Made by a program: the position numbers and the translations under genes. The notes beneath the pieces were generated by a model. The model was not told where the DNA came from and made no database searches. It worked only from the letters and a program-made list of their open reading frames with translations. Positions 22,401 through 57,773 of a stretch of DNA of 64,000 bases are shown one piece after another (within the stretch, counting starts at the first letter, position 1; each line of letters begins with the position of its first letter). This DNA is from Lingula anatina (Eukaryota; Animalia; Brachiopoda): positions 14,942,001-15,006,000 of the forward strand of contig CM120640.1 in the NCBI GenBank assembly GCA_051362555.1, read 5' to 3'.

Positions 22401-24428
22401 AAAATACAGATAATGCTGAAACATATATACAGGTATATTTCACAAAGAAACACTGTCCAATGCAAATAAAGCAAAGATTGTTTAAACTGGATCAAGCCAA
22501 AATATCCAGCGGGTGGTGTCCCAGCACCCACACACCGTGCTTTGAAACACATTGGCTAATATTCCTTTGATAAGCAAACATACTATTTGCATTTAAAGAA
22601 AAGACAATAACCTGAAAATCCCATTGGGAAAATCAAAAATAAATTTCTCAGCAATAGAAAGATACTTACAATCTTCCATAATGTCTGTTTTTTTTTCTCC
22701 ATTACAACATACCTTTTTCTCCAAACTAATTCCACTTTTTCCATCTGGGTATGTGTCTGAAAAAGAAAATTATCTACCAACATCAATATTAAATTGACAT
22801 TTGTGCCATATATCCCTCCATGTGAGATTTGCCCTTGTCTTACCACATACCACAATATCCAAAGAGATTGAAAATACAGGTAATGCTGAAACAGATATAT
22901 TTCACAAAGAATCACTGTCCAATGCAAATAAAGCAAAGAATGTTTAAACTGGATCAAACCAAAATATCCAGTGGGTGGTGTCCCAGCACCCACACACCGT
23001 GCTTTAAAACACATTGGCTAATATTCCTTTGATAAGCAAACATACTATTTACAATTAAAAAAAAAAGACAATAACCTGAAAATCTCATTGGGAAAATCAA
23101 AAATAAATTTCTCAGCAATAAAAAAATACTTACAATCTTCCATAATGTCTTTTCTTTTTTCTCCATTACAACATACCTTTTCATCCAATCTAACTCAACT
23201 TTTTTCCATCTTCCTTGTTGTCTCAAAAAGAAAATTATCTACCAACATCAATATTAAGGTTCACATTTGTGCCATATATCCCTCCATGAGAGATTTGAAC
23301 TTGTCTTAACACATACCACAATATCCAAAGAGATTGAAAATACAGATAATGCTGAAACAGATATATTTCACAAAGAAACACTGTCCAATGCAAATAAAGC
23401 AAAGAATGTTTAAACTGGATCAAGCCAAAATATCCAGCGGGTGGTGTCCCAGCACCCACACACCGTGCTTTAAAACACATTGGCTAAGATTCCTTTGATA
23501 AGCAAACATACTATTTGCAATTAAAGAAAAGACAATAACCTGAAAATCCCATTGGGAAAATCAAAAATAAATTTCTCAGCAATAAAAAGATACTTACAAT
23601 CTTCCATAATGTCTTTTCTTTTTTCTCCATTACAACATACCTTTTCATCCAATCTAACTCAACTTTTTTCCATCTTCCTTGTCTGAAAAAGAAAATTATC
23701 TACCAACATCAATATTAAGGTTCACATTTGTGCCATATATCCCTCCATGTGAGATTTGCCCTTGTCTTACCACATACCACAATATCCAAAGAGATTGAAA
23801 ATACAGATAATGCTGAAACATATATATATTTCACAAAGAAACACTGTCCAATGCAAATAAAGCAAAGAATGTTTAAACTGGATCAAGCCAAAATATCCAG
23901 CGGGTGGTGTCCCAGCACCCACACACCGTGCTTTAAAACACATTGGCTAAGATTCCTTTGATAAGCAAACATACTATTTGCAATTAAAGAAAAGACAATA
24001 ACCTGAAAATCCCATTGGGAAAATCAAAAATAAATTTCTCAGCAATAAAAAGATACTTACAATCTTCCATAATGTCTTTTCTTTTTTCTCCATTACAACA
24101 TACCTTTTCATCCAATCTAACTCAACTTTTTTCCATCTTCCTTGTCTGAAAAAGAAAATTATCTACCAACATCAATATTAAGGTTCACATTTGTGCCATA
24201 TATCCCTCCATGTGAGATTTGCCCTTGTCTTACCACATACCACAATATCCAAAGAGATTGAAAATACAGATAATGCTGAAACATATATATATTTCACAAA
24301 GAAACACTGTCCAATGCAAATAAAGCAAAGAATGTTTAAACTGGATCAAGCCAAAATATCCAGCGGGTGGTGTCCCAGCACCCACACACCGTGCTTTGAA
24401 ACACATTGGCTAATATTCCTTTGATAAG

Positions 24429-24645
24429 AGTAGTTACATCCGTACTATACGGGAGAAAAGAATTCCACTTTTTTCTTTTGTTATGTTACATCATTTGAAC
24501 AATGGAAAACCTATACCGGACAATGGGGATGTTTACAAAATAAACAAACAATTTTTTTAATGTAAACAAACGAGACTCCCTATTTTTGTTTACGTTTCAC
24601 TATGGTAACGGATGACGTCACAGAACGGGCCTGGGCATGTAGGAG
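24429..24645 (+). repeat. Polinton left terminal inverted repeat (217 bp)
   Basis: Reverse complement of 38610-38826; two mismatches seen by eye. Confidence 0.96.
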
Positions 24646-24802
24646 TAATGTTTACGTTTTGTCATAGCGACGGATGACGTCAAGCGCAATTCTTTTGTTA
24701 GGCGTGTTGCATGTTCAGGCGTGCAATTTGAAGGCTATATATGTTGGAATGGTCAAATCAAACTCCAATTCACTGACCTAAGTTGTACGTCCGAACATCA
24801 AA

Positions 24803-25678
24803 ATGTCGCAGTTCTTCAAACTTGGTGAAGATAGTCTGTTGTCGATATGCAGAAGCAAACAGGGGGTCCAGTTGGTCGTCTTCAGCGATTTGAAAACGTT
24901 GAACAAGATCCGGATGCCGCGAGAAGCATGGGAAGATTTTAAAAACACCCTGCCTTCCGTCCAAACTGCTATGTCTACCGATACTGAAATAGATGATCAG
25001 CTGGGGGAAAACTATAATGTCCGTGTGCTGTACGACATTGGTAAGGAGGAATCTGTGATGAAGCTAGCCTACGCACCGGTAAGTGCGTCGTATGAAGCGA
25101 TGTACGATGTACAATTTGACAAACGCACATTGGAGACGTTGCTGACCAAAATGCCTGAAATCAATGCAGCGCTGGGTGAAATCCCACCGACAACAGTCAG
25201 CGAGGAGCCGGAAGAAAGTGATGAAAGAATGTTTGGAGCCGAAAACGATGTAGAAGCAGACGTAGTATTAATTCATCTCATTTACGTGAAGTTGATCGTG
25301 CAGGAAATAGAGGCCATGCGTTACAGGTACTGTACTGGGTGTATAGCCGCGCACGGTTCCCAAAAGCATCACATGGATGGGTGTATGGCCGACTGGTCAG
25401 TTTCGGTACATGTTTACTTCACCAGGGCAAAAGCTGCTGTAAGTCATGAGGTAATACTGAAGGCCTACAAGTTAATGAAGAAAAAACTGAGACAACAAGA
25501 AAACCCATACATACTTTCCGTCATCATGACTGCATCGTTGCTGGAAGATTTTCGGAAAGACGTGGAGGAACCGAGCCATGCGTTATCCCCTGATACCGTC
25601 CTCGCTAGTATGGTCTACGATGTGTGCAAGATTGTATATGGCGAACATTTGTATAAGGCGATAAAAAAATCAGAATAA
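24803..25678 (+). CDS. Polinton accessory protein (291 aa), putative Zn-binding CxxC-H-SQ-H-C motif, possible PC4-like N-terminus
   Basis: Long ORF next to the TIR with upstream TATATA (~24736) and AATAAA overlapping the stop; motif YCTGCIAAHGSQKHHMDGC. Function is inference. Confidence 0.7.
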   Translation: MSQFFKLGEDSLLSICRSKQGVQLVVFSDLKTLNKIRMPREAWEDFKNTLPSVQTAMSTDTEIDDQLGENYNVRVLYDIGKEESVMKLAYAPVSASYEAMYDVQFDKRTLETLLTKMPEINAALGEIPPTTVSEEPEESDERMFGAENDVEADVVLIHLIYVKLIVQEIEAMRYRYCTGCIAAHGSQKHHMDGCMADWSVSVHVYFTRAKAAVSHEVILKAYKLMKKKLRQQENPYILSVIMTASLLEDFRKDVEEPSHALSPDTVLASMVYDVCKIVYGEHLYKAIKKSE

Positions 25679-25775
25679 ACTTTGAATTGAACAGAAAAAG
25701 ACGCCGTATAATCTGTGTAGAATTAACAAAGTTTGCATGTACACTAGCTAGAAGTGTGCGATGAAAGAAGACATT

Positions 25776-25979
25776 TGATTGGTTGATTATGACATCATAT
25801 CTAAAAATAGATTTATATATGGAACGTTAATTTGATGTGATGAAGACAATTTGATAGTAAAGAGTTGTTTACAAACATTTCATTGATTAAAATAATATGT
25901 GATTTGATTGGTTGAAAAAATGTTATTTGCTGTTAGCTGTAACGTGATTGGTTAGAAAAAATGTAATACATGATTGGTT
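25776..25979 (+). promoter_or_regulatory. Cluster of four inverted CCAAT boxes (TGATTGGTT) upstream of the BIR/integrase/capsid block
   Basis: TGATTGGTT at 25776, 25905, 25945 and 25971 in a 377-bp intergenic gap. Confidence 0.6.
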
Positions 25980-26055
25980 GAAATAAACACACCGCTTACC
26001 TGAAAAATTACAAAAATGTGTTTGCGATCATTTTTCTTTATACTGAGTAGACAGA

Positions 26056-26523
26056 ATGGATGATGATCATCCGGAAACCGATTCCGAGTTGGGGGGTGTG
26101 CTATATGGACCGGTCATGCCATACGCAAAAGAAGAAGACCGAATTTTGAGTTTTCTTAATTGGCCGGGCAAACTACTTATCAACCCAATCCCTTTAGCCA
26201 TTAGTGGATTTTACCGAGACCCACGAGCGTCTAGACACGTTGATGTGGTTCGTTGTTTTTACTGCGATTTGTATCTAAAGAATTGGGACCCGCTGAGAGA
26301 TGCCCCAGATGTCGAACACGAACGACACTCTCCTCAGTGCACGATGAGTACGGTTGGAAAAAGAATAAATCAACGATTTAATGTACCACTTACACCTAAA
26401 AAGCGATTTCAAATGGTTAGGCTTTTTGTGGTAGATGACACACTACCCGTTGTACATACCGCCAGTACAGTAATGTCGCTACTAAATACCCATTACGATG
26501 AAACTGATGGGAACTATAAATAG
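26056..26523 (+). CDS. Single-BIR-domain protein (IAP-like), 155 aa
   Basis: EEDRILSFLNWP...LAISGFY...DVVRCFYC..LKNW...EHERHSPQC matches the BIR consensus with CxxC/H/C zinc ligands; no RING. Confidence 0.9.
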   Translation: MDDDHPETDSELGGVLYGPVMPYAKEEDRILSFLNWPGKLLINPIPLAISGFYRDPRASRHVDVVRCFYCDLYLKNWDPLRDAPDVEHERHSPQCTMSTVGKRINQRFNVPLTPKKRFQMVRLFVVDDTLPVVHTASTVMSLLNTHYDETDGNYK

Positions 26524-26584
26524 AGATAGGATAAAGAAAGAAATCATTTTGCTTGTTGGAATTGATCTATAACTGTATGAGAAA

Positions 26585-27691
26585 ATGCCGCGTAAGAAAA
26601 AAACCAAGAAAGGGCAGAACAAAACAGATGCATATTTGCATAGTTTGTATACCAACCCGTCAAACCCTGTAAGCTTTGGTGGCATGTTAAAACTGTATAA
26701 TGCCGCACGAAAAGATGGTAAGAAAATTAGTCGTCAGCAAATCAAAGATTTTCTAGCCGCCCAAGATGTGTATACATTACATGCACCGGTTAGGAAACAA
26801 TTCAGTACAAATCGCGTCATGGTGAATTTTATTGATGATCAATGGCAGGGTGATCTGGCAGACCTCAGTAAAATAGCAAAATACAATAAAGGAATGAAAT
26901 TCTTGTTAACCGTGATTGATATATTTTCAAAATACGCATGGGCAGTTCCAATCAAATCAAAATCAGCGGACAATGTATTAGATGCGTTTAAAGGCATTGT
27001 TTCCGAAGGCAGAAAGCCACTGGTACTTCAAACTGATGCAGGGACAGAATTTACAAATAGAAAATTTCAAGCGTACCTCAAGAGTCAAGGCATAGCTTTT
27101 TTCACAACAAAATCGGAAAGAAAAAGCTCTGTGGTTGAGCGTTTTAACAGAAGCATAAAGACCCGTTTGTACAGATATTTCACAGCAAACAGTACGGTAA
27201 CGTATGTGACAGTCCTAAACGACTTGATGACAGGATACAACCATGCAAAACATCGAAGCATAAAGATGGCCCCAATCGATGTGAATCCACGAAATGCAAA
27301 CATTGTGTGGAAAAACTTGTATGGAAAAGTAAAAATAGGGAAGTCGGGGTTTAAATTTCAAGTAGGAGATACTGTAAGATTAAGCAAAACACGCACCCCT
27401 TTTGCAAAAGGATACGAACAGGGATGGACACAGGAAATATTTACAATATCAGAAAGATTAAACAGAACACCTCCTGTGTATAAGGTGAAAGATTACAATG
27501 GAGAGCAAATCGAAGGTGTCTTGTACGAACCAGAAATGATTAAAGTTATTAAAACTGACGACGTGTATCGTATCGAGAAAATTTTAAAGACCCGTGGAAA
27601 GGGGAAAACTAGGCAGCTTTTTGTAAAATGGGTAGGTTATGATGATCGTTTCAATACTTGGGTAGATTCGAAGGATGTACAAAAAACATAA
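26585..27691 (+). CDS. Retroviral-like (RVE) DDE integrase with C-terminal chromodomain, 368 aa
   Basis: WQGDLAD, QTDAGTEF and VERFNRSIK catalytic motifs; YRIEKIL...FVKWVGYDDRFNTWV chromodomain. Confidence 0.96.
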   Translation: MPRKKKTKKGQNKTDAYLHSLYTNPSNPVSFGGMLKLYNAARKDGKKISRQQIKDFLAAQDVYTLHAPVRKQFSTNRVMVNFIDDQWQGDLADLSKIAKYNKGMKFLLTVIDIFSKYAWAVPIKSKSADNVLDAFKGIVSEGRKPLVLQTDAGTEFTNRKFQAYLKSQGIAFFTTKSERKSSVVERFNRSIKTRLYRYFTANSTVTYVTVLNDLMTGYNHAKHRSIKMAPIDVNPRNANIVWKNLYGKVKIGKSGFKFQVGDTVRLSKTRTPFAKGYEQGWTQEIFTISERLNRTPPVYKVKDYNGEQIEGVLYEPEMIKVIKTDDVYRIEKILKTRGKGKTRQLFVKWVGYDDRFNTWVDSKDVQKT

Positions 27692-27729
27692 ATGTAACCG
27701 GTACCAGACAAAACACCTCATTTGAAAGG

Positions 27730-28461
27730 ATGGCGTCGTCTTTTCATGTTATCTTACCGTCAAACAGCAGCTTTAAGTATTTCCCTAACAACAGACCTGA
27801 GACATTCCAAACAAAACTGTCATCGTCACTTAATCTAGAAGGGGATTTCGAAGTCGCATTGGTGGAACTACAGTACCCATATTCGTGGAATAATATTCAG
27901 AACGGTGTCTTGACATATTACGACGGGGTAAAAACAAATACGTTAAACATTACTGCAGGGTATTATCCGACAGTTGGCGATCTAATAACTGCAATTCACG
28001 ATCAGTTAACAGCTATTGGAAAAACAAACATAACGTTGGGTTATAACATTATCAGTAGACGAGTTACAGTTCACTTGAAATCGGGGGCCTACATCGATGT
28101 TGCGGGAGACATGGCAACAATGCTAGGGTTTAAACCGAATGTCAGAGTTAATGCGGATACAATAGCCCCTTACCCTCCAAACATGACGTTAGGGTTCAAT
28201 TCCCTCTACGTGTATACAGATATTATACAAAATCAGATGGTAGGGGACGCTTCGGCAAATTTACTGAGGATTGTTGATATTAATGGCGTTTACGGACAAG
28301 TGGTCACAAAAACATTTGACAATCCCATTTACATCCCTCTAAATCGTCGTCATATTGACACAATTCGAATAGATATAAGTCGTGACACGGGTGAACTTGT
28401 GCAGTTTGATAGCGGGAAGGCTATAGCGACACTTCATTTTCGCAGAAAGAGTTTATTATAA
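27730..28461 (+). CDS. Minor capsid protein (penton), ~243 aa
   Basis: Likely start MASSFHVILPSNSS..FPNN; EVALVELQYP, LYVYTDII, NLLRIV, YIPL and TLHFRR motifs typical of Polinton minor capsid proteins. Confidence 0.88.
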   Translation: MASSFHVILPSNSSFKYFPNNRPETFQTKLSSSLNLEGDFEVALVELQYPYSWNNIQNGVLTYYDGVKTNTLNITAGYYPTVGDLITAIHDQLTAIGKTNITLGYNIISRRVTVHLKSGAYIDVAGDMATMLGFKPNVRVNADTIAPYPPNMTLGFNSLYVYTDIIQNQMVGDASANLLRIVDINGVYGQVVTKTFDNPIYIPLNRRHIDTIRIDISRDTGELVQFDSGKAIATLHFRRKSLL

Positions 28462-28463
28462 AA

Positions 28464-28841
28464 ATGGATCCTGTATACGTAGCGTTAGTAAAAAGATACG
28501 AAGCACAGGTGGGCGGAGGGTCCATTCATAAATTTAGAGGTACAAGGGTACAATCACGAATGCAAAGAGGCAATGGTAGGCTATTTCAACCTAGACACGC
28601 TGAAATATTGCATGTAGATAGACAGAATAACCCGAAACGCACAGAACAACCCGCAGTAAAGAAGAAACGTAAAAGAAGTCGTACCCCGAAGTCAAAACTT
28701 TATGTTAATGGTGACGTCATAAGGAAAACGTTAAACGCCATGACTATAAAAAAGAACAACACACCTAAAGCATCCAGAAGAGTAAAAGGTAGACGACCAA
28801 AACAGTCACGTTCATTCAAGGCACGAGAAACGAATTTTTAG
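28464..28841 (+). CDS. Small Arg/Lys-rich putative core (DNA-condensing, pVII-like) protein, 125 aa
   Basis: Lies between penton and major capsid genes; QVGGG and QRGNG motifs; KKKRKRSR and RRVKGRR basic tracts. Confidence 0.7.
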   Translation: MDPVYVALVKRYEAQVGGGSIHKFRGTRVQSRMQRGNGRLFQPRHAEILHVDRQNNPKRTEQPAVKKKRKRSRTPKSKLYVNGDVIRKTLNAMTIKKNNTPKASRRVKGRRPKQSRSFKARETNF

Positions 28842-28843
28842 AC

Positions 28844-30163
28844 ATGAATAACACTGAAAATGATCCCATCGTCAGAACTGAATTGGATATATTTTCGAAT
28901 ATACGCGATCATATGCAGACCGATCTGTTATCGAGCTATTTTGAAGAAGTGAGACCTCTCACTGCGGTTGCAGATGTGAGCCCCGTAATAGAATTTGTCA
29001 TTAAAGGAACACCCGACGAATATATCGATACGACGCAAATCAACCTATACGTTGAAGGTCAAATTGTTAAAGCAGATGGAACTGACATCGATGCAGGACA
29101 AAACACGTCAGTTGTGAATAACACGCTACACTCCCTATTTACAGCGGTCGACGTAGAGTTGAATGACCATTTAATAACTGTGGGACAGAATACATATGCC
29201 TACCGCGCATACTTGGAAAATTTATTGTATTATGGGAAAAATGCTAAAGAATCGCTTTTAACTTCGGAAATGTATTACCAAGATACCGATGGACTGATGG
29301 ATGACGTTGATGTAGACGGAGACCCAGGGAATGAAGGATTTAAGGCCCGTAATTCTTGGTTTCAAAGGAGCAGGAGGGTTGAAATGTATGGACCGTTAAA
29401 AATTGACTTAGCCACTCAAAACAAGCTTCTTCTGAATCAAGTGGACGTACGAATCAAGTTGCGAAGGACGTCGCATGCATTTTGCCTTATGTCGGACACG
29501 GATGCACAAGAACAATTTCTGATCAAAAACATATCCCTTTTTGTAAGGAGAGTCAAAGTATCTGATCGGTTGAAACTGGCTCATGAGAACATATTAGCCA
29601 AACACGTAGCATGTTATCCCATGACTAGAAGGGAAGTCAAAGTTATCAATTTACCCAATGGAGTAAGAACGGCTCATATTGACAATGCGTATTTTGGACG
29701 CATGCCTAAACGTATTCTTTTGGCTTTGTTGGAAGATGATGCTTTTTCGGGAGATTATACAAAGAATCCGTTTAATTTCAAACACAACGATTTAAGGCAA
29801 CTTCGATTAATGGTGGCGGGGGAACAAATACCATTCAAACCTTACAATTTTGATTTTAGTGTTCAAGGGGGGTTAAACTACTTAAGGGCGTATTATGATC
29901 TTTTGTCAGCAGTTGGAGCGGCAGACGGAGAGCACAGCATCGATATTGATAGAACTCAATACCTGAATGGATATGTTTTATTCGCTCACGATCTAACCCC
30001 TGATCAAACCTTTGACAATTATATAACTCCAACAAAGCAGGGTTCGCTTAACATCGATCTGGAGTTTGGACAACAGATTAACAATATCGTGTTGCTTGTC
30101 ATGGCAGAATTTGATTCTGTTATCAAAATTGACCAACGTAGGAGCGTTTTTGTAGAATATTAA
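28844..30163 (+). CDS. Major capsid protein (double jelly-roll, hexon-like), 439 aa
   Basis: ELDIF, IEFVI, NNTLHSLF, YAYRAYLENLL, G.MPKR, KNPFNFKH, FAHDLTPD and GSLNIDLEF motifs of Polinton major capsid proteins. Confidence 0.94.
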   Translation: MNNTENDPIVRTELDIFSNIRDHMQTDLLSSYFEEVRPLTAVADVSPVIEFVIKGTPDEYIDTTQINLYVEGQIVKADGTDIDAGQNTSVVNNTLHSLFTAVDVELNDHLITVGQNTYAYRAYLENLLYYGKNAKESLLTSEMYYQDTDGLMDDVDVDGDPGNEGFKARNSWFQRSRRVEMYGPLKIDLATQNKLLLNQVDVRIKLRRTSHAFCLMSDTDAQEQFLIKNISLFVRRVKVSDRLKLAHENILAKHVACYPMTRREVKVINLPNGVRTAHIDNAYFGRMPKRILLALLEDDAFSGDYTKNPFNFKHNDLRQLRLMVAGEQIPFKPYNFDFSVQGGLNYLRAYYDLLSAVGAADGEHSIDIDRTQYLNGYVLFAHDLTPDQTFDNYITPTKQGSLNIDLEFGQQINNIVLLVMAEFDSVIKIDQRRSVFVEY

Positions 30164-30165
30164 AT

Positions 30166-30693
30166 ATGAATACGAAGCAAATAGAATGCATTCTTCAGAC
30201 TGATCCGGTTACGAGTACATGTTTTCAAGGGGTGTTTGCATCAGACGCGATGCCCAAAAAGATATGGACTTATCCAGCATGCCTCGTAGCTAATACGGAT
30301 CCTCACGATAAACCGGGCGTGCACTGGGTTGCTTTTTACTTTGATGAACAGGGACACGGAGAGTTCTTTGACTCTTATGCGAAATCACCTTATTATTACA
30401 ATGCAGCTTTTAAACGTTTTTTAGACGAAAACTCTTTATCTGGGTGGAAGTGTAACACTAGGACATTACAGAGCCTGTATACCAAAGTGTGTGGACAATA
30501 CTGTATATATTACTTGATGAATAGATCTCGTGGAAAAAAATTAGAACAAATACTTAGTAAATTCACCAGCGACAAACAATTTAATGATATATTAGTGTAT
30601 GATTATGTTAATGCACATTGCAACATACCCTACTGTGTAAACGCGTGTTTTCAAGTTTGTAGATCAAAGAAGTCACTAGGAATATTGTATTAA
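30166..30693 (+). CDS. Adenain-like cysteine maturation protease, 175 aa
   Basis: NTDPHDKPGVHW (His), EFFDSY (Asp), LQS...VCGQYC (Gln/Cys). Confidence 0.93.
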   Translation: MNTKQIECILQTDPVTSTCFQGVFASDAMPKKIWTYPACLVANTDPHDKPGVHWVAFYFDEQGHGEFFDSYAKSPYYYNAAFKRFLDENSLSGWKCNTRTLQSLYTKVCGQYCIYYLMNRSRGKKLEQILSKFTSDKQFNDILVYDYVNAHCNIPYCVNACFQVCRSKKSLGILY

Positions 30694-30758
30694 ACACATT
30701 TATTCGAGTAATAATAAAAATACAGCTGTGCAAATACGTTTTATGTTATTATTTTATT

Positions 30759-31520
30759 TCAATATATGTTGAATAAAGATAGTTTAGATTTTACTACATT
30801 TCCCGAATTCCTCTGACTTGGCCTGGGAGCTGGTTTAGTTTTTGCTACATGTCCCGATCCCATCTGAGTTGAACTGGAAGAAGTGTCCAACGACATAATC
30901 TGGTTGCGCCGCTTTACGTTTGAGATGTTATTTAGTGGTACATTAAGACGTTTCAAACCCTTTAAAAATACAGTAAGCCCTGGCGGTTCGTAATTCCTAC
31001 GGGGTACATACAGATCGTTAAACAAATCTACTACATTGCTTCCTTCGTACACTCTACCATTGTATTTCAACTCCCCTTGATCATTATACGACATCACATT
31101 AGGTTGGTTAGACATGTATCTCAAAATTACGTTAGCTTTGCGACGCACACGCTGTGGTATTGCATCTAATATCTCGGCTTTAAGATGTAATACAGATCCA
31201 GCCTCTGACTTGACGATGGGGGTTGCGGTTGCGTCAGTGGTGTCAACTCCAGGTTGTGCTTCTAACGGTTGTGACGAATTGTGCACAACAACTGCAACCG
31301 GTTCGCGTTTTCTCGCTTTACTCAGATATTGACTTTGAAGATCGTTGTAGATACTCATTTTTTCATCGAATGGTACATCGGTCCTTTGCAAAGTTTTCTT
31401 CATTTCATTTTCTAAACGTAGTGTTTCTTCGACAAAGGGGGAATAATTAGCGCTTACTCTCTGTTTCAAAGCATTCAGTTCGTTCTCGTTGATTAAGACC
31501 ATTTTATTGAAGCCTGCCAT
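30759..31520 (-). CDS. Polinton protein of unknown function, 253 aa
   Basis: Intact ORF in the ATPase-strand block; N-terminal coiled-coil-like region, GELKYNG..EGSNVVDL motif, C-terminal QMGSG. Confidence 0.75.
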   Translation of the reverse strand: MAGFNKMVLINENELNALKQRVSANYSPFVEETLRLENEMKKTLQRTDVPFDEKMSIYNDLQSQYLSKARKREPVAVVVHNSSQPLEAQPGVDTTDATATPIVKSEAGSVLHLKAEILDAIPQRVRRKANVILRYMSNQPNVMSYNDQGELKYNGRVYEGSNVVDLFNDLYVPRRNYEPPGLTVFLKGLKRLNVPLNNISNVKRRNQIMSLDTSSSSTQMGSGHVAKTKPAPRPSQRNSGNVVKSKLSLFNIY

Positions 31521-31827
31521 TTCTTGTTATCGGTTTTAGAATTGCCTTAACTGCACCCGGATTCCGTATCAAAATTATTTTTTTCCGCTGAATGGACACT
31601 TGTTTGGAAGCCAGCTGAACGATGACGCGTTTAACCCTCCGTAATGCCGATTTTTCTGTCGCAGTCAGGGTAATATTTGTATTATATAATAGATTAGATG
31701 CGTAGTTACAGATAATTCTAACGAGATCGTAGGGTGAATTCTTAACAACGGCAGTTATCAATTTCTTGTCGGCTATGGAAAGCAAACTGACATGAGCATT
31801 GAATAACTTTTCTGTCTCAACTTTCAT
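31504..31827 (-). CDS. Small basic Polinton protein, 107 aa
   Basis: Intact ORF directly downstream of the ATPase, overlapping the next ORF by 17 nt; IC...NLL.....LT..EK..LRR.K..I..LA.K pattern. Confidence 0.72.
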   Translation of the reverse strand: MKVETEKLFNAHVSLLSIADKKLITAVVKNSPYDLVRIICNYASNLLYNTNITLTATEKSALRRVKRVIVQLASKQVSIQRKKIILIRNPGAVKAILKPITRNGRLQ

Positions 31828-31857
31828 GATACACCGCAGCGATGAAAATATGTTCAG

Positions 31858-32529
31858 TCATTTACATGTGTATGCGTAATGCGTTTCTCCGGGAAAGATA
31901 TTGGTGCGCAGACGAATGCAATCCGCAGTGTTCTGTCTGAGGTCTATGAGTAAATAGCTATGGGCACTGGATGTGGCGTCTTTATAAACATTTATAAACG
32001 ATTTTAGATCGTTGGGATACATTTGCATTCCTAGCGTTTTGACTTGCAGGGAGTCACGGGGGTTTTAAAAAAGAACCAAATAATGACAGTTCAACGATAT
32101 GGTTCGCGCGTGCTTTTCTTTGGGAAATAAATTTTGTACAATCAATACTACACTGATGTTACGATGGTGAGAGCCTTTTGTGAATAGGTCACGGATCCGG
32201 GCATCGTCGCTACATTCGGCAAAAAGATCATCGAGTACCATTAGATTATTTAATTGAGAATCAAAAAAGGTGGCGTCGGTTAAGTCGGTAGGAATACCTT
32301 TAAAGAATGTTACTGTGTCAGGGTGTTCCCTCTGAATATCATCGAACAACTGCTGCCAAATATCGTAACAATATATTATCTTTTGTGGCGACGGTGAAAT
32401 CATTTTATCGGCATTTGATAATAGCCTTTTAATCCATACTGTTTTTCCTGAACCAGTGGGCCCTGCTAAAAGAGCAGTGAAAGGGTGTTTTAGATGTGTA
32501 TCGTACATGTCCAAAAATGTAATTGACAT
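31858..32529 (-). pseudogene. A32/FtsK-like DNA packaging ATPase with one in-frame TAA at 32065-32067
   Basis: Walker A GPTGSGKT, Walker B MVLDDL, SHHRNIS, RTISLN. Reading through the stop gives LVLF*NPRDSLQVKTLGMQMYP...YLLIDLRQ...RLRTNIFPGE, ending at TGA 31858-31860 (223 codons). Confidence 0.92.
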
Positions 32530-33108
32530 TTATCGGCTTGAAGAGTTTACTTTATACCTTTTATCACGTGTTATACACAAACGACATATTATTTCCTGAG
32601 TCTTTCCATGATGAAGTTCTACGTGTTTCTAAGTTTTCGCTTACTATTATCCTTACAACATCTGGTTTTCAACGGTCAATGTTCAAGTTTTATAATTAGC
32701 CTGGCTATGCTAGCGCTTTGATCTATGTAGTAATGTGATTTATTAGGAGGGGCCTGGACATTTTAATTGAGACAGTGGTTAGGGAACACTGTTTCTATCT
32801 ATCCATACATGTGAAGTGATAAAAATTGCAGTAAAATTGATAACCGCTTTTCATTTTCAAGCTAAAGTTCGTAGGTTCGGGGGAGGGTACTTAGTGACAC
32901 GGTACATTCAGTTCTCATGCATCGTACACAAAGAGGCAATCGCCATTAATTAATGTGTGCTGTTTCGTCTCTATGGGCCTTTCAATAGCGTGTGATTGTG
33001 CTTGTGCACATTCTTTTGTGAAGAGATTACGTTGAGAGCGACACTGAAAGTACTAAAGAGACTGGTGTTGTTTCTGTACACGGGGGGTACAATAGAAGAC
33101 CACAGCAC

Positions 33109-33222
33109 GTACATTATTAACAACATTTTCCCCCGAAGACGATATTATTGATAGTATCCGATTTGTACGGCAGGTACATTATTAACAACATTTTCCCCCG
33201 AAGACGATATTATTGATAGTAT
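33109..33222. repeat. 49-bp perfect direct repeat in the ATPase/PolB intergenic region
   Basis: gtacattattaacaacattttcccccgaagacgatattattgatagtat at 33109-33157 and 33174-33222. Confidence 0.9.
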
Positions 33223-33896
33223 TTGCTTTGTGTTATGTTCTACTACATTTTATTGAGTGCAACGCTGACTATGTAATGAAATTTAAACGCGTATCAATCG
33301 ATACAATAGAACAACTGTAGTCACACCCATGCGTGTTGTTGTAAGGGATTACATCAAGAGAGTGGCATTGAAATTATAAGAGGCTGGTGTTGATTCTGTG
33401 AACAGGGAGGACAATATAAGGCCAGGGCATATGAATAATCAACAGCATTTTCTCACGGTTGTCACCCTACATTTTCCCGCGAACAACACAATGGTATACG
33501 TAATTTTATGTGACGTGGGATATTTTTATTGGTTAAAAGTTTTATTTCATTATTCTTAATATTAAACATCGTGGCTTCGACGTCATTTGAGCATTAACGT
33601 CTGTGGAGGCATGTCGCGGCAATACATTGTAGAAGGTCCCATGGAGAGCCAGTGTAGGAGCACACAAAATGTAAGTTACTGAACATTCAGTCAATTTAAT
33701 TCACGTTAAAATTTTTGTATATATCGTTAACATTGTGTCTAAAATGTTTAGCTGTCTGAAAACGGGGGACTGATTTGATTTTTTGATCTTTATAGATATC
33801 ACGCACAGTGGCTATTGCTTGAGCTTGAGATTTCCTTACCCTCACCCCTTACATTACCCCTCCTTTTATTACATGTGCCTTTAACACTATTTTATC

Positions 33897-36800
33897 ATGG
33901 GTGACACAGAGTCTGAGGGATCGGTTTCTAATTTGTGGGAAGACATGAGTAATGAGGATGATTTATTGAATGCGGAGCATGAGAGTGGTGATGAGTTATG
34001 GGCTGATTCAAATGTAACAGACGATCAGCTGGTAAATCATGTAGATCAGTTCGAAGGTGAACTCGGGATGGGGTTAGATTATAGAAGGTTTTATAATCTG
34101 CGACGGGTCAATGAACGGCGCATGAAAAAATTTTCAACTGTAAACACGGACTATCAGCTCACATTCTCCCATTTAGAAAATAGAAGTTTAAATTCTATGA
34201 TCCCGTTCCTACGTGAGCTTTTCCAAAACATATTTGACGACTTAGTGCAGAACATGCTTCCTCATGATTTGGTCAGAATTGTCTTGCAATCTGACACGTT
34301 AGAGTATCCCATATCAATAGCGTTCACGAGGGTATCTGAATTTACAGTGGATCTCTTTTTGGACGAATTGATAAGAGTATTACAGTCTCACGAGGAGTTT
34401 AGACTTGACGCATCTATTATTTTAACTGTGTGTCATGTCAGTATGCCACGCCCTGGTGGAGCAAGATTAAAAAGAGGGTCTATGGGTCTGCAGAGCTTTC
34501 TCCACGCAAAGCGTTCAGTCATTCAAATACGTAACGGGGCGGGAGATCAGTTGTGTTTAGCGCGTGCATTGGTTGTAGCTATGGCCAAAGCAGATAATGA
34601 CCCCGAATATGCAACAATCGTTGATAACCGTTGTCGTGAACAATTAGAAAGAGCCCAAGGCTTGCATACAAGAGCTGGAGTACCGTTAGGTCCTTGTGGT
34701 GTCCCTGAAATTAAACAGTTTCAGTCATATTTGAGTAATTATCAAATATCTGTGTTTTCTGGAGATCACTTTATGAGTTTAATTCATAAAGGACCTTCAG
34801 CTTTGAAGGAGCTGTTTTTATTTTATCATAAGGGGCATTATGATGTCATAACTTCGATAACAGGTTTCATGGGTAGAGCGTACTATTGTACGGAATGCAA
34901 TATAGGTTTTGATCACATGGGTGACCATTCGTGCGAAAAATATTGCGAGAGGTGTAAAAAGGATTCGTCATGCAAGTTTGAAAATTGGCGTCATTGCGAT
35001 CAGTGTAGCAGAAATTTCCTCTCTGACAGCTGTTTTAGAAATCATACACTTGTACCCGAACAAGGTAAATGGTCAACCTGCCGACGATTTACTCTTTGTA
35101 AAAAGTGCACTAAATTTGTCGATCATAAAAGGGAAGAAAAACATGTGTGTTACACTTACAAGTGCAAGTCATGTAATAAGTACGTCAAAGACGGTCACTT
35201 ATGTTACATGCAAATTGATAGAGATGACCTTGGTGAGGATGATGACGATTTACTTATGTATATCGATGAGAATCCTGCTGCCAATTTCATTGGTAAGTTT
35301 AAACCTGGTTCAAAACGCCCTTTCATATTTTTTGATTTTGAAGCGCAGCCATCGCATGTTCATACCCCTAATCTAGTGGTTGCTCACAGGGTATGTCATC
35401 ACTGTCTAAATTTAGACGTAACCCCCACTAGTACATGTGAGCTATGTGGCAAAAATGAACATGTGTTTAAGGGGCCGTCGTGTGTTGATGAATTTTGCAA
35501 ATGGGTATTTGAAGATCAGAGTTTTGAACGTGCACAAGGTAAAAGGAAAAGGAAAGGAAAAAACAAAGGAGGTCGCAGTAAACGAATGAATCCTGGAGCA
35601 TCGTTATGTTTTGATGGTGCTGAGTATGAATGTGAGAATGACGAGGAGGATATGATCATACATAATGGGGCTATATTGTTGGCACACAACATGTCTGGTT
35701 ATGATGGTTTTTTCCTCTTAAAATGGCTCAAAGACCAATGTATCGTTCCTGAGGTGATATTACGGGGCGCCAAGGTGCTTTCTATTAAGGTGGGCGATAT
35801 AACCGTTATTGATTCTTACAGCTTCCTCCCCATGGCACTCAACAAACTTCCCGCTGCATTTGGTCTAGATGAATCCCTGTCAAAGGGCTACTTCCCCCAC
35901 TTCTTTAATACCCCTGAAAACCAAGACTATAGGGGTAAAATGCCCGCCACTAATTTCTATGGCTCTGATTCAATGTCTACCGGTGCGAGAGAAAAATTTT
36001 TGGCATGGTACAATGATCAGGTTAGTCAAAACTATATATTTGATTTCCAAAAGGAAATACTCATATACTGCCGCATGGACGTCACCATTCTTCGGCAAGC
36101 ATGTCTCCGATTCAGGAAATTGATGCTTGATATAACAGTTGCGAATGGTGTGGAAATTGATGTTTTTTACAGATCTATCACTATAGCCAGCGCATGCAAT
36201 GTTGTGTTCAGATCTTTATTTCTTATGCAAAACACGATCGGCATTATTCCAACACAGGGGTATAAGCCGAAAAACAAAACGTCCGTGAAAGCAGCTAAAT
36301 GGTTGCGGTATAGGGCGGAGCGTGACAATGTCTTTATACAGCATGCTCATAATCAGGGAGAAAAGAAAATAGGAAAGTTTGTCGTTGATGGTTGGGCGTC
36401 AACAACTAACACTGTCTACGAGTATCAGGGGTGTTTTTGGCATGGGTGTCCAAAATGTTACAACATTTACAATATCAACAATGTCAATTTGATGACAATG
36501 GGTGAGTTGTTAGAAAGGACGGTGGATAAGAAGCATGCGCTTCAATCTTTAGGTTTCAACTACATAGAGGTATGGGAGTGTGAGTTTGACAGGGTCATAC
36601 GGGAGGATGCTGGCGTGAAAGAAATAGTGGATAGCGTGAACGTTGTCGATTGTATTGATCCTCGTGAAGCCTTTTACGGGGGCAGGACGAACGCAGTCAA
36701 GCTTTTTTGTCAGGCAGATCAGGGACAGAAAATACGTTACATTGACGTGTGTAGTCTATATCCCTATGTCAACAAATACAAACCATACCCCCTCTGTCAC

Positions 36801-38290
36801 CCCACCATCATAACCGAAAACTTTGGTCCTCTTAGCGAGTATGAAGGTTTAGTCAAATGTACTATTCTTCCTCCTCACGGCCTTTATCATCCTGTCCTTC
36901 CCTATAGATCACAAGGGAAACTAACATTTCCTCTTTGTCGCACATGCGCTGACACACTGCAGCAGTCACGGTGTGAGCATAATGACGAAGAGCGTTGTAT
37001 GACAGGTACATGGGTTACGGTCGAGTTAAAAAAGGCCGTTTCCAAGGGCTATGTGATTAAACAAATGCACGAGGTCTGGCATTATGATCATGTTAGCGAA
37101 TACAACCCAATCACCAAAACGGGGGGTCTTTTCTCTGACTATATCAATACATTTCTCAAGCTCAAACAAGAGGCCAGCGGCTATCCACCAGAGTGCACGA
37201 CACCACAGCTCAAAAGAGACTACATTGCTTCCTACTTCACCAAAGAGGGCATTCGACTAGACCCTAACCAAATTAAGAAGAACCCAGGTCTGAGGGCTTT
37301 GTCTAAACTGATGCTTAACAGCTTTTGGGGTACGTATAAACAGAGGTAGCATTCATTTATTACATACACTATGTCTGAGGTTCACGCATGATTCCAATAT
37401 TTGTATTTGTTATTCACCGTAAATAATGGTAATAACATCGTACGTATATTTGCATATTACATCTGTCCTTGATGCTTTATTATGTTTACACCTTGTTTAT
37501 TCACATCATACAATATTACAGTACTTCTCATCCGTGCATTTTCACTATCCTTACTCGCATAGTTATGTTATTATTTTTTATGTTTGTTATTTCAGGCAAA
37601 TTCGGTCAACGAATGAACATGACACAGTCCGAATACGTCACCGAGGTGGACGAGTACTTTGCGCTGCTGTTGAACAAATCCGTCGATGTCACCAACGTGA
37701 TGTTTTTAACCGATGATATGGTGGAGGTACACTACAAACACCAATCTGAGTTTAATGAATGCTCCGATAAGACCAACGTCGTCATAGCCGCGTACACCAC
37801 CGCCCACGCTCGTATGGTTCTTTACAGCGCCATAGAGGACCTGGATCGAAACGTTCTTTACTTTGACACGGACTCAATCATCTTCCTGGACGATGGCAGT
37901 GCACAAACCAACGCCTACCTAAATACCATCATGGGCAGCTACCTTGGCGACTTCACCGATGAGCTAGATGAGGGGGACCACATCACCACCTTCGTGTCGG
38001 GCGGGCCGAAAAACTACGCATACGTTACCGCAAAGGGAAAGACAATTTGTAAAGTGAGGGGTATCTCACTGAATTATGAAACCTCCCAAATAGTGAACTA
38101 TGAGACTTTACGTAACATGGTACACGGTATAGGTCCGAAAGAGGTGTCAACAACTACACATCATAAAATTGTGCGAGACACTCTGAATAAAGAACTGCTC
38201 TCTAAAAGGGAGGATAAAGTTTACCGGGTTGTGTACACTAAACGTGTCATTCAGCAAGACTCATTTGATACACTACCATACGGCTATTAA
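33897..38290 (+). CDS. Protein-primed family B DNA polymerase, two exons (33897-37329, 37596-38290), ~1375 aa
   Basis: ExoI FDFE, ExoII HNMSGYD, ExoIII YCRMDV, motif A DVCSLYP, motif B KLMLNSFW-G-KFGQR restored by splicing, motif C YFDTDS, and GPKNY. Confidence 0.95.
37330..37595 (+). other. 266-bp phase-1 GT-AG intron in pPolB
   Basis: TGG G|gtacgt ... tttgttatttcag|GC AAA TTC GGT CAA; the interval is T/A-rich and carries the in-frame stop at 37347-37349. Confidence 0.9.
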
Positions 38291-38609
38291 CTTTCATAAA
38301 TTGCCGAGTAGTGTTGTTTATATATTTATCATTTTTCATTTTGTTGTACATACATTGTTTTGCTGTTTTAATCTGTGCATGTAATTGATAGATTCACTAT
38401 ACTCACTTTGCACTGCATTATGCATAATTATTATCTTTTAGTAAATTAGACATTTATGTACATTGTTTTAATGTTTTAATGTGTATATACAACTGTTCAC
38501 TATGATCAACTTACAATGCAATTATGTATTTCAATAAAATCATGTTTTATTTACAAATTTACTTGTTTACTACTACATTGTGCCTTTTTCCTTAGTAATT
38601 CTTTAAAAT

Positions 38610-38826
38610 CTCCTACATGCCCAGGCCCGTTCTGTGACGTCATCCGTTACCATAGTAAAACGTAAACAAAAATAGGGAGTCTCGTTTGTTTACATTAAAA
38701 AAATTGTTTGTTTATTTTGTAAACATCCCCATTGTCCGGTATAGGTTTACCATTGTTCAAATGATGTAACATAACAAAAGAAAAAAGTGGAATTCTTTTC
38801 TCCCGTATAGTACGGATGTAACTACT
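38610..38826 (-). repeat. Polinton right terminal inverted repeat (217 bp)
   Basis: Reverse complement of 24429-24645. Confidence 0.96.
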
Positions 38827-41800
38827 GATAAGCAAACATACTATTTGCATTTAAAGAAAAGACAATAACCTGAAAATCCCATTGGGAAAATCAAAAATAA
38901 ATTTCTCAGCAATAGAAAGATACTTACAATCTTCCATAATGTCTGTTTTTTTTTTCTCCATTACAACATACCTTTTTCTCCAAACTAATTCCACATTTTC
39001 CATCTGGGTAAGTGTCTGAAAAAGAAAATTATCTACCAACATCAATATTAAATTGACATTTGTGCCATATATCCCTCCATGTGAGATTTGTCTTGACTTA
39101 CCACATACCACAATATCCAAAGAGATTGAAAATACAGGTAATGCTGAAACATATATATATATATATTTCACAAAAAAACACTGTCCAATGCAAATAAAGC
39201 AAAGAATGTTTAAACTGGATCAAGCCAAAATACCCAGCGGGTGGTGTCCCAGCACCCACACACCATGCTTTAAAAGACATTGGCTAATATTTCTTTGATA
39301 AGCAAACATACTTTTTACAATTAAAGAAAAGACAATAACCTGAAAATACCATTAGGAAAATCTAATCTAAATTTCTCAGGAATCAAAAGATACTTACAAT
39401 CTTCCATAATGTCTGTTTTTTTTTCTCCATTACAACATATGTTATTCTCCAAACTAATTTAACCTTTTTCATCTGGGTTGGTGTCTGAAAAAGAAAATTA
39501 TCTTCCAACATCAATATTAAGGTTCACATTTGTACCATATATCCCTCCATGTGAGATTTGTCTTTGACTTACCACATACCACAATATCCAAAGAGATTGA
39601 AAATATAGGTAATGCTGAAACATATATATATTTCACAAAGAAACACTGTCCAATGCAAATAAAGCAAAGAATGTTTAAACTGGATCAAGCCAAAATATCC
39701 AGCGGGTGGTGTCCCAGCACCCACACACCGTGCTTTAAAAGACATTGGCTAATATTTCTTTGATAAGCAAACATACTATTTGCAATTAAAGAAAAGACAA
39801 TAACCTGAAAATCCCATTGGGAAAATCAAAAATAAATATCTCAGCAATAAAAAGATACTTACAATCTTCCATAATCTCTGTTCTTTTTTTCTCCTTTACA
39901 ACATACCTTTTTCCCCAAACTAATTCCACTTTTTCCATCTGGGTAAGTGTCTGAAAAAGAAAATTATCTACCAACATCAATATTAAATTGACATTTTAGC
40001 CATATATCCCTCCATGTGAGATTTGTCTTTGACTTACCACATACCACAATATCCAAAGAGATTGAAAATACAGGTAATGCTGAAACAGATATATTTCACA
40101 AAGAAACACTGTCCAATGCAAATAAAGCAAAGAATGTTAAAACTGGATCAAACCAAAATATCCAGCGGGTGGTGTCCCAGCACCCACAGAACGTGCGTTA
40201 AAACACATTGGCTAAAATTTCTTTGATAAGCAAACATACTATTTACAATTAATGAAAAGACAATAACCTGAAAATCCCATTGGGAAAATCAAAAATAAAT
40301 TTCTCAGCAATAAAAAAATACTTACAATCTTCCATAATGTCTTTTCTTTTTTCTCCATTACAACATACCTTTTCATCCAATCTAACTCAACTTTTTTCCA
40401 TCTTCCTTGTCTGAAAAAGAAAATTATCTACCAACATCAATGTTAAGGTTCACATTTGTGCCATATATCCCTCCATGTCAGATTTGCCCTTGTCTTACCA
40501 CATACCACAATATCCAAAGAGATTGAAAATATAGGTAATGCTGAAACATATATATATTTCACAAAGAAACACTGTCCAATGCAAATAAAGCAAAGAATGT
40601 TTAAACTGGATCAAGCCAAAATATCCAGCGGGTGGTGTCCCAGCACCCACAGACCGTGCTTTAAAACACATTGGCTAATATTCCTTTGATAAGCAAACAT
40701 ACTATTTACAATTAAAGAAAAGACAATAACCTGAAAATACCATTGGGAAAATCAAATCTAAATATCTCAGGAATTGAAAAATGCTTACACTCTGCCATAA
40801 AGTCTCTTCTTTTTTCTCCATTACAATTAACATGCCTTTTCATCCAATCTAACTCAACTTTTTTCCATAATTTTTATTCCTTGTTGTCTGAAAAAGAAAA
40901 TCATCTACCAACATCAATATTAAATTGGCATTTGTGCCATATATCCCTCCATGTGAGATTTGTCCTTGTCTTACCACATACTGTACCACAATATCCAAAG
41001 AGATTGAAAATTCAGGTAATGCTGAAACAGATATATTTCACTAAAAAACACTGTCCAATGCAAATAAAGCAAAGAATGTTTAAACTGGATCAAGCCAAAA
41101 TATTCGCTAGTTTTTTCCTCTGGTTTTCGTTGCTGTATTCTTTCGAGAAAAAAAGGTGGAATCTAAAATATTGAACTTTTATTATTATTATTATTGTTAT
41201 TATTATTATTTTTTTTATTTTATTTTTATTTATTTATTTATTTTTTTTTTTTTTTTTGCACAGATGTACCTGTTTTTTTCTGCCTTTCTTTGAAATCCAT
41301 ATTTCCGCGGTTCACCAAGCTGCAATGTGACATCGCCCTGCTGGTAGTGAGGATGCGGTTGCCGCTCTCCATGGAAACGTAGACAGATACGTCATATGTC
41401 AACATCACGTCGTGACGTATAACATATAACGCCATGACCTTTAAAAATGTAGGCCTACCACCCTCTGCTGAGACTCTATTAGAATACAGCATAAAAATGA
41501 AAACAGCCAAAAACACCGAACTTGTGAATATGACGGAAAGCAGACCATGCTGTCGGATACGGATACTATTTCCATTGCGTTAGGTGAGCTGAAAGGCACA
41601 CTTGTATTTCTGCGTGCCTTCTGGCTGAGAAGCTTTACTTCGAAGATGCTGAAGATGGGCCTGACTGTTATGTAGCCTACTGACTGTACAAAGGGAACTT
41701 TGAATATGCTGGTATGGCCCTAATCGTGCAGCTACACCTCTACATCTCTTTGCTTGTTCCATTTGTCATTATTGGTTGTGCCATGCAACTGTGCACTATA

Positions 41801-49300: not shown

Positions 49301-49789
49301 AGCTGATTATCAGGAAATTTGCTATCTATTAACACAGTTAAGATATTACAGAGAAGTTTTTTTTTTCTCAGAAAATGGCACAGATTGAATAAAAAATAAA
49401 AAATCTAACAAATTCTTATATTGATGTTGGAAAGATTGCCTTAGATTACCATAGAGATATTTGATGAGTTTGATTGGTGCCCATTTGTTAGCATTTCTTT
49501 TTATTTTCTTTATTTCGATAAAAAACAAAATCAATAAGATAAGATGAACTCTTTTTCAGCTCAGTCAGATTATGGGACATAAATAATGACAAAAAGCACA
49601 AGAACATCATCAAGCCAAGGTCACAAGTTGGTCGAAAAGTTGTCCCCACATGTTGTGCATATAGTCCCGATGGCAAACTTATTGCTGCTGCGTGCCAGGA
49701 TGGCTCCATACAGATGTGGGATTATAAAAGATACATTGTGAGCACTACTGCAGCTCTTGTGCAACTCTTTTGAAGCACAGTCGAGGACG

Positions 49790-49820
<31 letters not shown>

Positions 49821-57073: not shown

Positions 57074-57773
57074 TCTGCCTTTATGTGGGTGCACTCCTCA
57101 GGAGGTCGAAATTAATGTCAGTTTCATCACTCTTGTACGAATGTTGCAGCAAACGGAAGTGTGTGGAGGTGCGATGAATTCTGATCTTCATTTCATGAAG
57201 AGCTGAAATCACCTGTGTATATTGAATGTATTTTTCTTGATTATATATATCTGGTGCGTAATAAAGTGTTAACTTGCATATACAATGATAGTTTTATAAT
57301 GATATTTTAAAAATGAATATTTATCAGAATAAATGGTGTAATGCTGCTTTTGTAACTGTGCCGTAAATGCGCCGCATTACATCATTTTAATAATTAAGGG
57401 GCCTGTCAAAATTCATGAAAACTACTTATAGGGCCTACTTTTTACTTCTTCTGCCGCACAATGTACAATTACAGTTGGATTGCACAGTGGGGGCAATGAA
57501 AAGCTTTGACACGCCCCGATTTACTCCGAAGTTGAAATTATGCCTACTATAAAGAAATAGGGGTATCTCCTCTGTGTTTTCAGTATTAAAATGAAGCAAG
57601 TTTTGCGATTGATTACCATTAGGCCTATGTGATTTATTCCTGTTTGGCCTCTCTTCAAACCTAAATATAGCTTGACAGTCCTTAAAACATAAATATAGCT
57701 TGACAGTCCACAAATGAACAAGTGAAAATTGTCTCTCGCTGATTATGTTGGTAGTGTGCTGTTCATAAAAAAC

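What the first reader, a model, noticed from the sequence alone, without database searches (positions are those of the whole stretch)
24423..38832. Near-intact endogenous Polinton virus parked in a satellite, with its empty site present in the same window
Seen: full virion, replication and integration gene set, TIRs with only ~2 mismatches, and a perfect GATAAG TSD. The homologous unoccupied site (ttcctttGATAAGcaaacatactatttgcatt) is at ~12051-12056 in the sister block. The integrase chromodomain keeps aromatic residues (Y, W, Y) at cage-like positions. Established: Polintons make 6-bp TSDs, and chromodomains can read methyl-lysine marks. Inference: a recently active virus that may favour heterochromatic satellite as a gene-free latency site, ~7.5 kb from WDR70.
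Basis: partly seen in the sequence, partly recalled or inferred. Interest (0 to 1): 0.85.

Follow-up and report, generated by a model that had tools for sequence, protein, structure and literature searches.

The report
Young Polinton inside a brachiopod satellite
A 14.4-kb virus-like jumping element of a well-known kind (Polinton/adintovirus) sits in a short tandem-repeat array of a lamp-shell (Lingula) genome, where it likely inserted recently; its packaging gene carries a stop codon, its polymerase gene is split by a predicted intron, and nothing here shows that it aims for satellites.

Summary
The element spans 24429-38826, with 217-bp terminal repeats (2 mismatches), AGTAGT ends and a GATAAG duplication. 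The site at 12051 is its true paralogous empty site, but 35 of 36 unoccupied monomers found carry the same hexamer. It is an Alpha/group-2 Polinton (adintovirus) with a VSR-type polymerase in a Lingula genome. All core genes are recognisable, plus IAP and MOSUB (PC4-like) accessory genes already reported for adintoviruses. Two corrections: the packaging ATPase has an in-frame stop, so this copy likely cannot package itself; and the polymerase is split by a 266-nt GT-AG insert, a predicted intron, absent from 25 of 25 related loci. Splicing was not seen in sparse RNA reads. Satellite targeting is unsupported: the chromodomain cage is the family default (32 of 38 loci), the idea is in print, there is one insertion, and a gene-less transposon sits in the same small array, about 5 kb from a gene. 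Best reading: an ordinary recent insertion tolerated in non-coding repeat. This scan has already noted Polinton polymerase introns in other genomes (60 notes, at least 10 genomes). Interest 0.28.

The parts
24423..24428 (+). left target-site duplication GATAAG
24429..24645 (+). left terminal inverted repeat, 217 bp, begins AGTAGT
24803..25678 (+). 291-aa MOSUB-like gene: predicted tandem PC4/PUR-fold single-strand-binding domain plus a Cys/His-motif helical domain
   Evidence: model pLDDT 80; Pur-alpha Z 13.9, rmsd 2.4, 123 aligned; adintovirus MOSUB E 6.7e-4; family found in 13 fetched loci, including L061, L066, L091-L097
26056..26523 (+). 155-aa single-BIR (IAP-like) accessory gene
   Evidence: Pfam BIR E 2.1e-13; NAIP, XIAP and survivin hits
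26585..27691 (+). rve integrase with C-terminal chromodomain (Y328, W349, Y352)
   Evidence: Pfam rve 2.5e-13, Chromo 4.4e-7
27730..28461 (+). minor capsid protein (penton)
   Evidence: model pLDDT 93; PBCV-1 capsid chain Z 15.6, mavirus penton Z 12.5, rmsd 6.6, 229 aligned
28464..28841 (+). 125-aa basic protein at the PW position (assigned by position only)
   Evidence: gene order in PMC8097293
28844..30163 (+). major capsid protein
   Evidence: Pfam DJR-like E 0.0011, below cut-off; 118 homologues, best 71% in Lingula anatina
30166..30693 (+). adenain-type maturation protease
   Evidence: Pfam Peptidase_C5 E 3e-4, 20.9 bits against cut-off 21.3; homologues in 61 of 80 loci
30759..31520 (-). 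253-aa gene at the PZ position
   Evidence: homologues in 16 of 80 loci, downstream of the ATPase where printed
31504..31827 (-). 107-aa gene at the PM position
   Evidence: homologues in 3 of 80 loci
31858..32529 (-). packaging ATPase, interrupted by an in-frame stop at 32065-32067 after residue 154; the same frame runs on for 68 codons
   Evidence: Pfam Pox_A32 1.2e-6; both parts one codon apart in 19 of 19 printed loci
33897..37329 (+). protein-primed DNA polymerase, first part (OTU-like, exonuclease and VSR-like motifs, polymerase motifs A and B)
   Evidence: Pfam PF03175 3.6e-38; motifs located (motif labels recalled); weak Vsr hit E 0.03
37330..37595 (+). 266-nt GT-AG insert, predicted phase-1 spliceosomal intron
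   Evidence: absent from 25 of 25 related loci; splicing not seen
37596..38290 (+). polymerase, second part (motif C, YFDTDS)
   Evidence: matches 113 of 120 related polymerases
38610..38826 (-). right terminal inverted repeat
38827..38832 (+). right target-site duplication GATAAG
5204..41103 (.). 463-465-bp satellite array, about 41 monomers (18.9 kb of repeat), interrupted by two insertions
12051..12056 (+). unoccupied paralogous site in the sister block
16802..19405 (.). second insertion in the array: gene-less DNA transposon, 25-bp terminal inverted repeats, TA duplication

Best explanation
This is an Alpha/group-2 Polinton (adintovirus) that its integrase likely pasted recently into one monomer of a small satellite array, making a 6-bp duplication, and that likely persists there because the repeat is non-coding, not because it was aimed there. 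Shown in the sequence: ends, duplication, paralogous empty site, gene set, a stop in the ATPase and a GT-AG insert in the polymerase. Inferred from the family: the element would be copied as a free linear molecule by its protein-primed polymerase, helped by the PC4-like protein, and re-inserted by the integrase. The polymerase message would need host splicing. The BIR protein would damp cell death. This copy likely could not package its own DNA unless the stop is a base-calling error or a sister copy supplies the ATPase. Related copies exist in the species and are weakly transcribed.
For: Ends and duplication match the published Maverick pattern. Sister blocks differ by 4 in 910 bases and CpG is uneroded. 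Core genes were confirmed by profile, homology or fold. Near-identical sequence is held by 9 DNA runs from 6 samples in 3 studies (share of words 0.74-0.81). RNA reads are few (73, 23, 74 and 43 from 9.5-12.4 million records per run) and mostly 90-99% alike, so largely from other copies or alleles. Of the listed read differences that fall in the polymerase, 21 of 34 are at third codon positions (p 6e-4; 31 further places were not shown), which suggests purifying selection on the family. A second, gene-less transposon in the same array shows that the array takes insertions without a chromodomain of their own. The cage is the family default.
Against: The insertion does lie in satellite and the cage is intact, as the targeting idea expects. 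The satellite is CpG-poor (0.18), which fits past methylation. One unrelated Polinton family that lacks the cage had none of 6 distinct left flanks in an array: compatible with targeting by the cage, but a different host with possible assembly bias. No other insertion site of this family could be examined, and the junctions were not checked in reads. The intron was not seen spliced.
Confidence: 0.75

Rival explanations
1. The chromodomain reads H3K9me or H3K27me and guides the integrase to silent satellite chromatin, where the provirus stays latent.
For: Y/W/Y cage aligned to Polycomb and Chp1. Insertion lies in a CpG-poor array. Precedent in chromoviruses, as cited in PMC8502044. A cage-less family had 0 of 6 left flanks in arrays.
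Against: One insertion only. The cage is present in 32 of 38 related loci. The protein ends 16 residues after the last cage residue, so a C-terminal helix seems absent (the helix is recalled from canonical chromodomains). The array is small and near genes. A gene-less transposon is in the same array.
Confidence: 0.15
2. This copy was dead on arrival or died soon after: the ATPase stop and the polymerase insert are both lesions, and the insert only resembles an intron.
For: No spliced joint was listed in 4 RNA runs. Large inserts in vertebrate Mavericks are described as marks of decay, and intact ones have no introns (PMC8097293). 25 of 25 related loci lack the insert.
Against: The insert has a GTACGT donor, a long pyrimidine tract and CAG. 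It falls inside one codon so that both parts stay in register with relatives. It has no terminal repeats or second copy in the window. Depth at the site was about 1, too low for a joint to be listed. 5 of 120 related proteins also end at this motif, as unspliced intron-bearing genes would.
Confidence: 0.2
3. The arrangement is an assembly artefact: an element from elsewhere was joined into a repeat array, and the ATPase stop is a base-calling error.
For: Tandem arrays are hard to assemble. The stop lies at the border of a T run and an A run. The junctions were not checked in reads.
Against: A perfect 6-bp duplication, with monomer register and higher-order order continuing across the element as in the sister block, is what a real insertion leaves and a mis-join would rarely give.
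Confidence: 0.05

Closest known systems
Alpha adintoviruses / group-2 Polintons (Starrett et al. 2021, PMC8502044; passages and a supplement search read)
   Same: PF03175-type polymerase with an OTU-like motif; integrase with C-terminal chromodomain; hexon, penton, protease and ATPase; IAP accessory gene; a MOSUB-named gene in adintovirus records.
   Different: Predicted intron in the polymerase; stop in the ATPase. No Lingula mention was found in that paper's text or in the part of its supplement that is held.
Marine pPolB2 Polintons with a VSR insertion (Jeong et al. 2023, PMC10748475; passages read)
   Same: VSR-like motif inside the polymerase (weak Vsr hit E 0.03; motif in 105 of 120 relatives). 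Nearest named polymerases are from bivalves, octocorals and echinoderms at up to 55%.
   Different: Brachiopod host; long branch with no close relative in a quick tree.
Vertebrate Mavericks (Barreat and Katzourakis 2021, PMC8097293; passages read)
   Same: (AGT)2 // (ACT)2 ends, 6-bp duplication, size and repeat length within range, eight core gene positions in two modules.
   Different: The polymerase points outward, opposite to the ATPase module. Intact vertebrate elements are described as intronless with eight open frames; this copy would not meet that definition of 'intact'.
Chromoviruses (chromodomain-bearing Gypsy LTR elements; known here only as cited in PMC8502044, and from recall)
   Same: Integrase with a C-terminal chromodomain.
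   Different: Different element class. None of the listings showed a paper testing such targeting in a Polinton.

Membership tests
Polinton/Maverick | terminal inverted repeats of about 100-1500 bp | tested here: met
   217 bp, 2 mismatches; range from PMC10748475
Polinton/Maverick | (AGT)2//(ACT)2 ends and 6-bp target-site duplication | tested here: met
Polinton/Maverick | protein-primed family B polymerase | tested here: met
   PF03175 E 3.6e-38; in two parts
Polinton/Maverick | rve integrase | tested here: met
   Pfam rve 50.6 bits against cut-off 32.6
Polinton/Maverick | major and minor capsid, protease and packaging ATPase genes present | tested here: met
   major capsid and protease fall just below Pfam cut-offs but have many homologues in the same order
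'Intact' Maverick (PMC8097293 definition) | all core frames open and intronless | tested here: not met
   ATPase stop and polymerase insert
Alpha adintovirus / group 2 | OTU-like N-terminal domain with a pfam03175-class polymerase | tested here: inconclusive
   pfam03175 met; OTU rests on recalled motifs located, with no profile or fold test
VSR-type pPolB2 | VSR nuclease insertion in the polymerase | tested here: inconclusive
   E 0.03 to E. coli Vsr over the FWH motif; motif shared by 105 of 120 relatives; no structural test
Heterochromatin-targeting chromodomain integrase | three-residue aromatic cage | tested here: met
Heterochromatin-targeting chromodomain integrase | insertions enriched in heterochromatin; binding to methyl-lysine | not testable with these tools
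   no genome held; no chromatin or binding data
Spliceosomal intron | GT-AG ends, pyrimidine tract, frames in register with relatives | tested here: met
Spliceosomal intron | removed from RNA | tested here: inconclusive
   no joint listed at depth near 1 in 4 runs
Retrozyme (considered for the 463-bp repeat) | hammerhead core in each monomer | tested here: not met
   no CTGANGA match inside the satellite stretches; no Rfam hit at gathering level and no hammerhead at E up to 10

The most novel reading that the evidence does not exclude
A currently mobile brachiopod Polinton lineage uses its chromodomain to land in methylated satellite chromatin and keeps its polymerase behind a host-type intron inside the catalytic core, so that host chromatin and host splicing together gate the switch from silent provirus to replicating virus.
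Probability: 0.1. Interest if true: 0.7.

Novelty: new member of a known kind. Interest (0 to 1): 0.28.

Why it matters
As it stands, this is a tidy, datable example of a known element in a little-studied animal group, with its pre-insertion site preserved in a sister block. Two things could lift it. First, what the conserved Polinton chromodomain does looks open: it was proposed to steer integration (PMC8502044), and searches listed no test. A multi-copy young family in Lingula would allow a genome-wide flank test. Second, a spliced polymerase departs from the published statement that intact Mavericks have no introns (PMC8097293), and would make searches based on open frames call such copies dead. 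This scan has noted such introns many times on other DNA, so it is a recurring variant rather than a first.

Tried and rejected
Genome-wide copy and flank survey: not possible, no genome is held. Presence of this exact insertion in other individuals and read support for the junctions and the ATPase stop remain open. No RNA holder was listed by the index; RNA rows came from the same species label only. RNA lay: no joint at the predicted intron, depth too low to decide. Viral contigs: no capsid relative, and 5 distant polymerase loci. ESM Atlas gave no usable hit for ORF1 and only generic WD40 for the host exon. No solved-structure sequence hit for the major capsid. Foldseek against PDB gave no ORF1 match at E up to 0.001; its top rows were PURA. 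Retrozyme reading of the satellite rejected. Introner origin of the intron: no terminal repeats and no second copy in the window. A single intron-bearing clade was not supported: the 5 proteins ending at the motif are scattered in a quick tree (the careful tree did not finish), and their DNA was not seen. The cage-less out-group family is too indirect to count as a test. ORF1 as a new gene family rejected: it matches adintovirus MOSUB. IAP cargo as a novelty rejected: reported in PMC8502044, although search 17 alone had listed nothing relevant. One search (polintons, PC4, double jelly-roll) returned 0 papers. One search listed no paper with Lingula among its top 15 of 232. The supplement of PMC8502044 was cut when stored, and other supplements were not read; they may hold intron or Lingula annotations.
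Full report
1. The observation. The element runs from 24429 to 38826 (14,398 bp). Its terminal inverted repeats are 217 bp with two mismatches and begin AGTAGT, and GATAAG flanks both ends. It interrupts a 463-465-bp tandem array of about 41 monomers between 5204 and 41103. The monomer register continues across the element. A sister block exists, and its site at 12051 is the unique best match to both flanks: 4 differences in 910 bases, next best 25. As evidence of an empty site it is cheap, because 35 of the 36 unoccupied monomers found by pattern carry the same hexamer. Its real value is dating: the insertion is likely younger than a duplication whose copies differ by about 0.4%. The element's CpG ratio of 1.00, against 0.18 in the satellite and 0.51-0.58 in the flanks, also suggests youth.

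2. Host. The ALG2 gene in the window is 96% identical to Lingula anatina and 78% or less to anything else listed. The best capsid homologue is also from Lingula, at 71%. The host is a Lingula brachiopod. A WD40 gene with WDR70-like motifs starts about 7.5 kb from the element and about 5 kb from the end of the array (the name is recalled).

3. Genes. On the plus strand lie a 291-aa gene, a BIR gene, the integrase with chromodomain, the penton, a basic 125-aa gene, the major capsid and the protease. On the minus strand lie the ATPase and two genes at the PM and PZ positions. The polymerase is on the plus strand at the right end. The penton call was confirmed by fold: PBCV-1 capsid chain Z 15.6, an aviadenovirus chain Z 14.4, Sputnik Z 12.7 and mavirus penton Z 12.5. 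The 291-aa protein is predicted to begin with a tandem PC4/PUR fold (Pur-alpha Z 13.9, rmsd 2.4, 123 aligned). Its top viral matches are adintovirus proteins, two of the first four named MOSUB, and relatives occur in 13 of the 113 fetched loci. It is a known accessory gene and a likely single-strand binder. IAP homologues in adintoviruses are stated in PMC8502044 (passages; supplement label).

4. The ATPase frame has an in-frame stop at 32065-32067 after residue 154 and continues for 68 codons. In all 19 printed metagenome loci with an ATPase (21 of 80 loci had hits to both parts; only loci of 6 kb or more were printed) the two parts lie one codon apart. The stop borders two homopolymer runs, so a base-calling error is possible; this was not resolved. 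The polymerase is split by 266 nt at 37330-37595 with a GTACGT start, a pyrimidine tract and a CAG end, 70% A+T, with stops in all three frames. The second part matches 113 of 120 related polymerases. In 25 of 25 related loci that held both parts there was no insert; 11 of these 25 come from one assembly bin, most of them near-copies. Five of 120 related proteins end at this motif, scattered over a quick tree; that hints at similar introns elsewhere, but their DNA was not seen. I read the insert as an intron (about 0.75), unconfirmed: four RNA runs gave depth near 1 here and no joint was listed. PMC8097293 says no introns were seen in intact vertebrate Mavericks (passages). PMC11957031 reports introners in dinoflagellate Polinton-like elements (passages). 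Unchecked notes of this scan report polymerase introns in at least 10 other genomes.

5. Family activity. Nine DNA runs from six samples in three studies hold 0.74-0.81 of the words of 24429-34400. This shows the family in several samples, not this insertion site. RNA reads were few (73, 23, 74, 43). Only 20, 11, 0 and 19 of them were 99% alike or better, so most come from other copies or alleles.

6. Targeting. The chromodomain keeps Y, W and Y at the positions of the Polycomb and Chp1 cage. So do 32 of the 38 related loci where the domain could be aligned (42 had integrase hits); the six exceptions are one family. The cage is therefore the default, and PMC8502044 already notes that it might influence integration; PMC11071296 lists the chromodomain as a standard adintovirus feature (passages). 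Paper searches listed no test of targeting or of satellite preference in Polintons. In the window, a gene-less TA-flanked transposon lies in the same array, and the array is small and near genes. Neither is a test. With one insertion and no genome, targeting stays open at low odds (0.15).

7. Mechanism. Shown: integrase-type insertion marks, gene content and the two breaks. Inferred from the family: protein-primed copying of a free linear genome with help from the PC4-like protein, re-insertion by the integrase, packaging by ATPase, capsid proteins and protease, and damping of cell death by the BIR protein. Inferred here: the polymerase message needs host splicing; this copy would need an ATPase from a sister copy to be packaged, unless the stop is an error; and it persists because the repeat tolerates insertions.

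8. Classification and verdict. It meets the defining features of Polintons and fits the Alpha/group-2 class with a VSR-type polymerase (PMC10748475, passages; weak Vsr hit; motif in 105 of 120 relatives). Penton position agrees with PMC4028283 (passages). It fails the published definition of an intact copy. The 463-bp repeat is not a retrozyme. Verdict: a new member of a known kind, with a predicted polymerase intron as its one unusual trait. Interest 0.28. The most novel reading, chromatin-guided insertion plus splice-gated replication, has probability about 0.1 and would merit 0.7.

Noticed in passing
window 16802-19405: Gene-less 2,604-bp DNA transposon with 25-bp terminal inverted repeats and a TA duplication, full of internal repeats, inserted in the same satellite array.
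   Followed up: partly
window 33671-33795: GTAAGT donor and pyrimidine-rich AG acceptor 100-230 bp upstream of the polymerase start: a candidate 125-nt intron in the untranslated leader (read by eye; not seen in RNA).
   Followed up: no
window 33002-33343: Four RNA reads (two starts) in run X12 replace 340 bases of the ATPase-polymerase spacer with 19 other letters, pointing to a sister copy with a different spacer. The spacer also holds a 65-bp tandem duplication at 33102-33231.
   Followed up: no
P0119, P0166, P0180, P0181, P0188: Five of 120 related polymerases end within a few residues of the same motif as the window's first part, at two neighbouring positions; possibly repeated intron gain at one spot. 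Several intronless relatives have a donor-like GGTAAG or GGTAAA at this codon.
   Followed up: partly
L090-L099, L109: A multi-copy Polinton family, most copies 93-99% alike, filed inside a bacterial genome bin (Rubritalea sp.) and evidently from a eukaryotic host; its integrase lacks two of the three cage residues and its MOSUB-like gene follows the polymerase directly.
   Followed up: partly
window 5204-41103: The satellite has local higher-order structure: runs of monomers duplicated at 0-7 differences per 455 bp against a median of 37.
   Followed up: partly
window 46760-53900, 55287-57097, 59936-63621: Host genes: a WD40 gene with WDR70-like motifs (+), ALG2 (-, 96% to Lingula anatina) and an animal haem peroxidase (-).
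   Followed up: partly
L047:273-515: One of 80 metagenome Polinton loci also carries a BIR-like gene, next to its ATPase.
   Followed up: no
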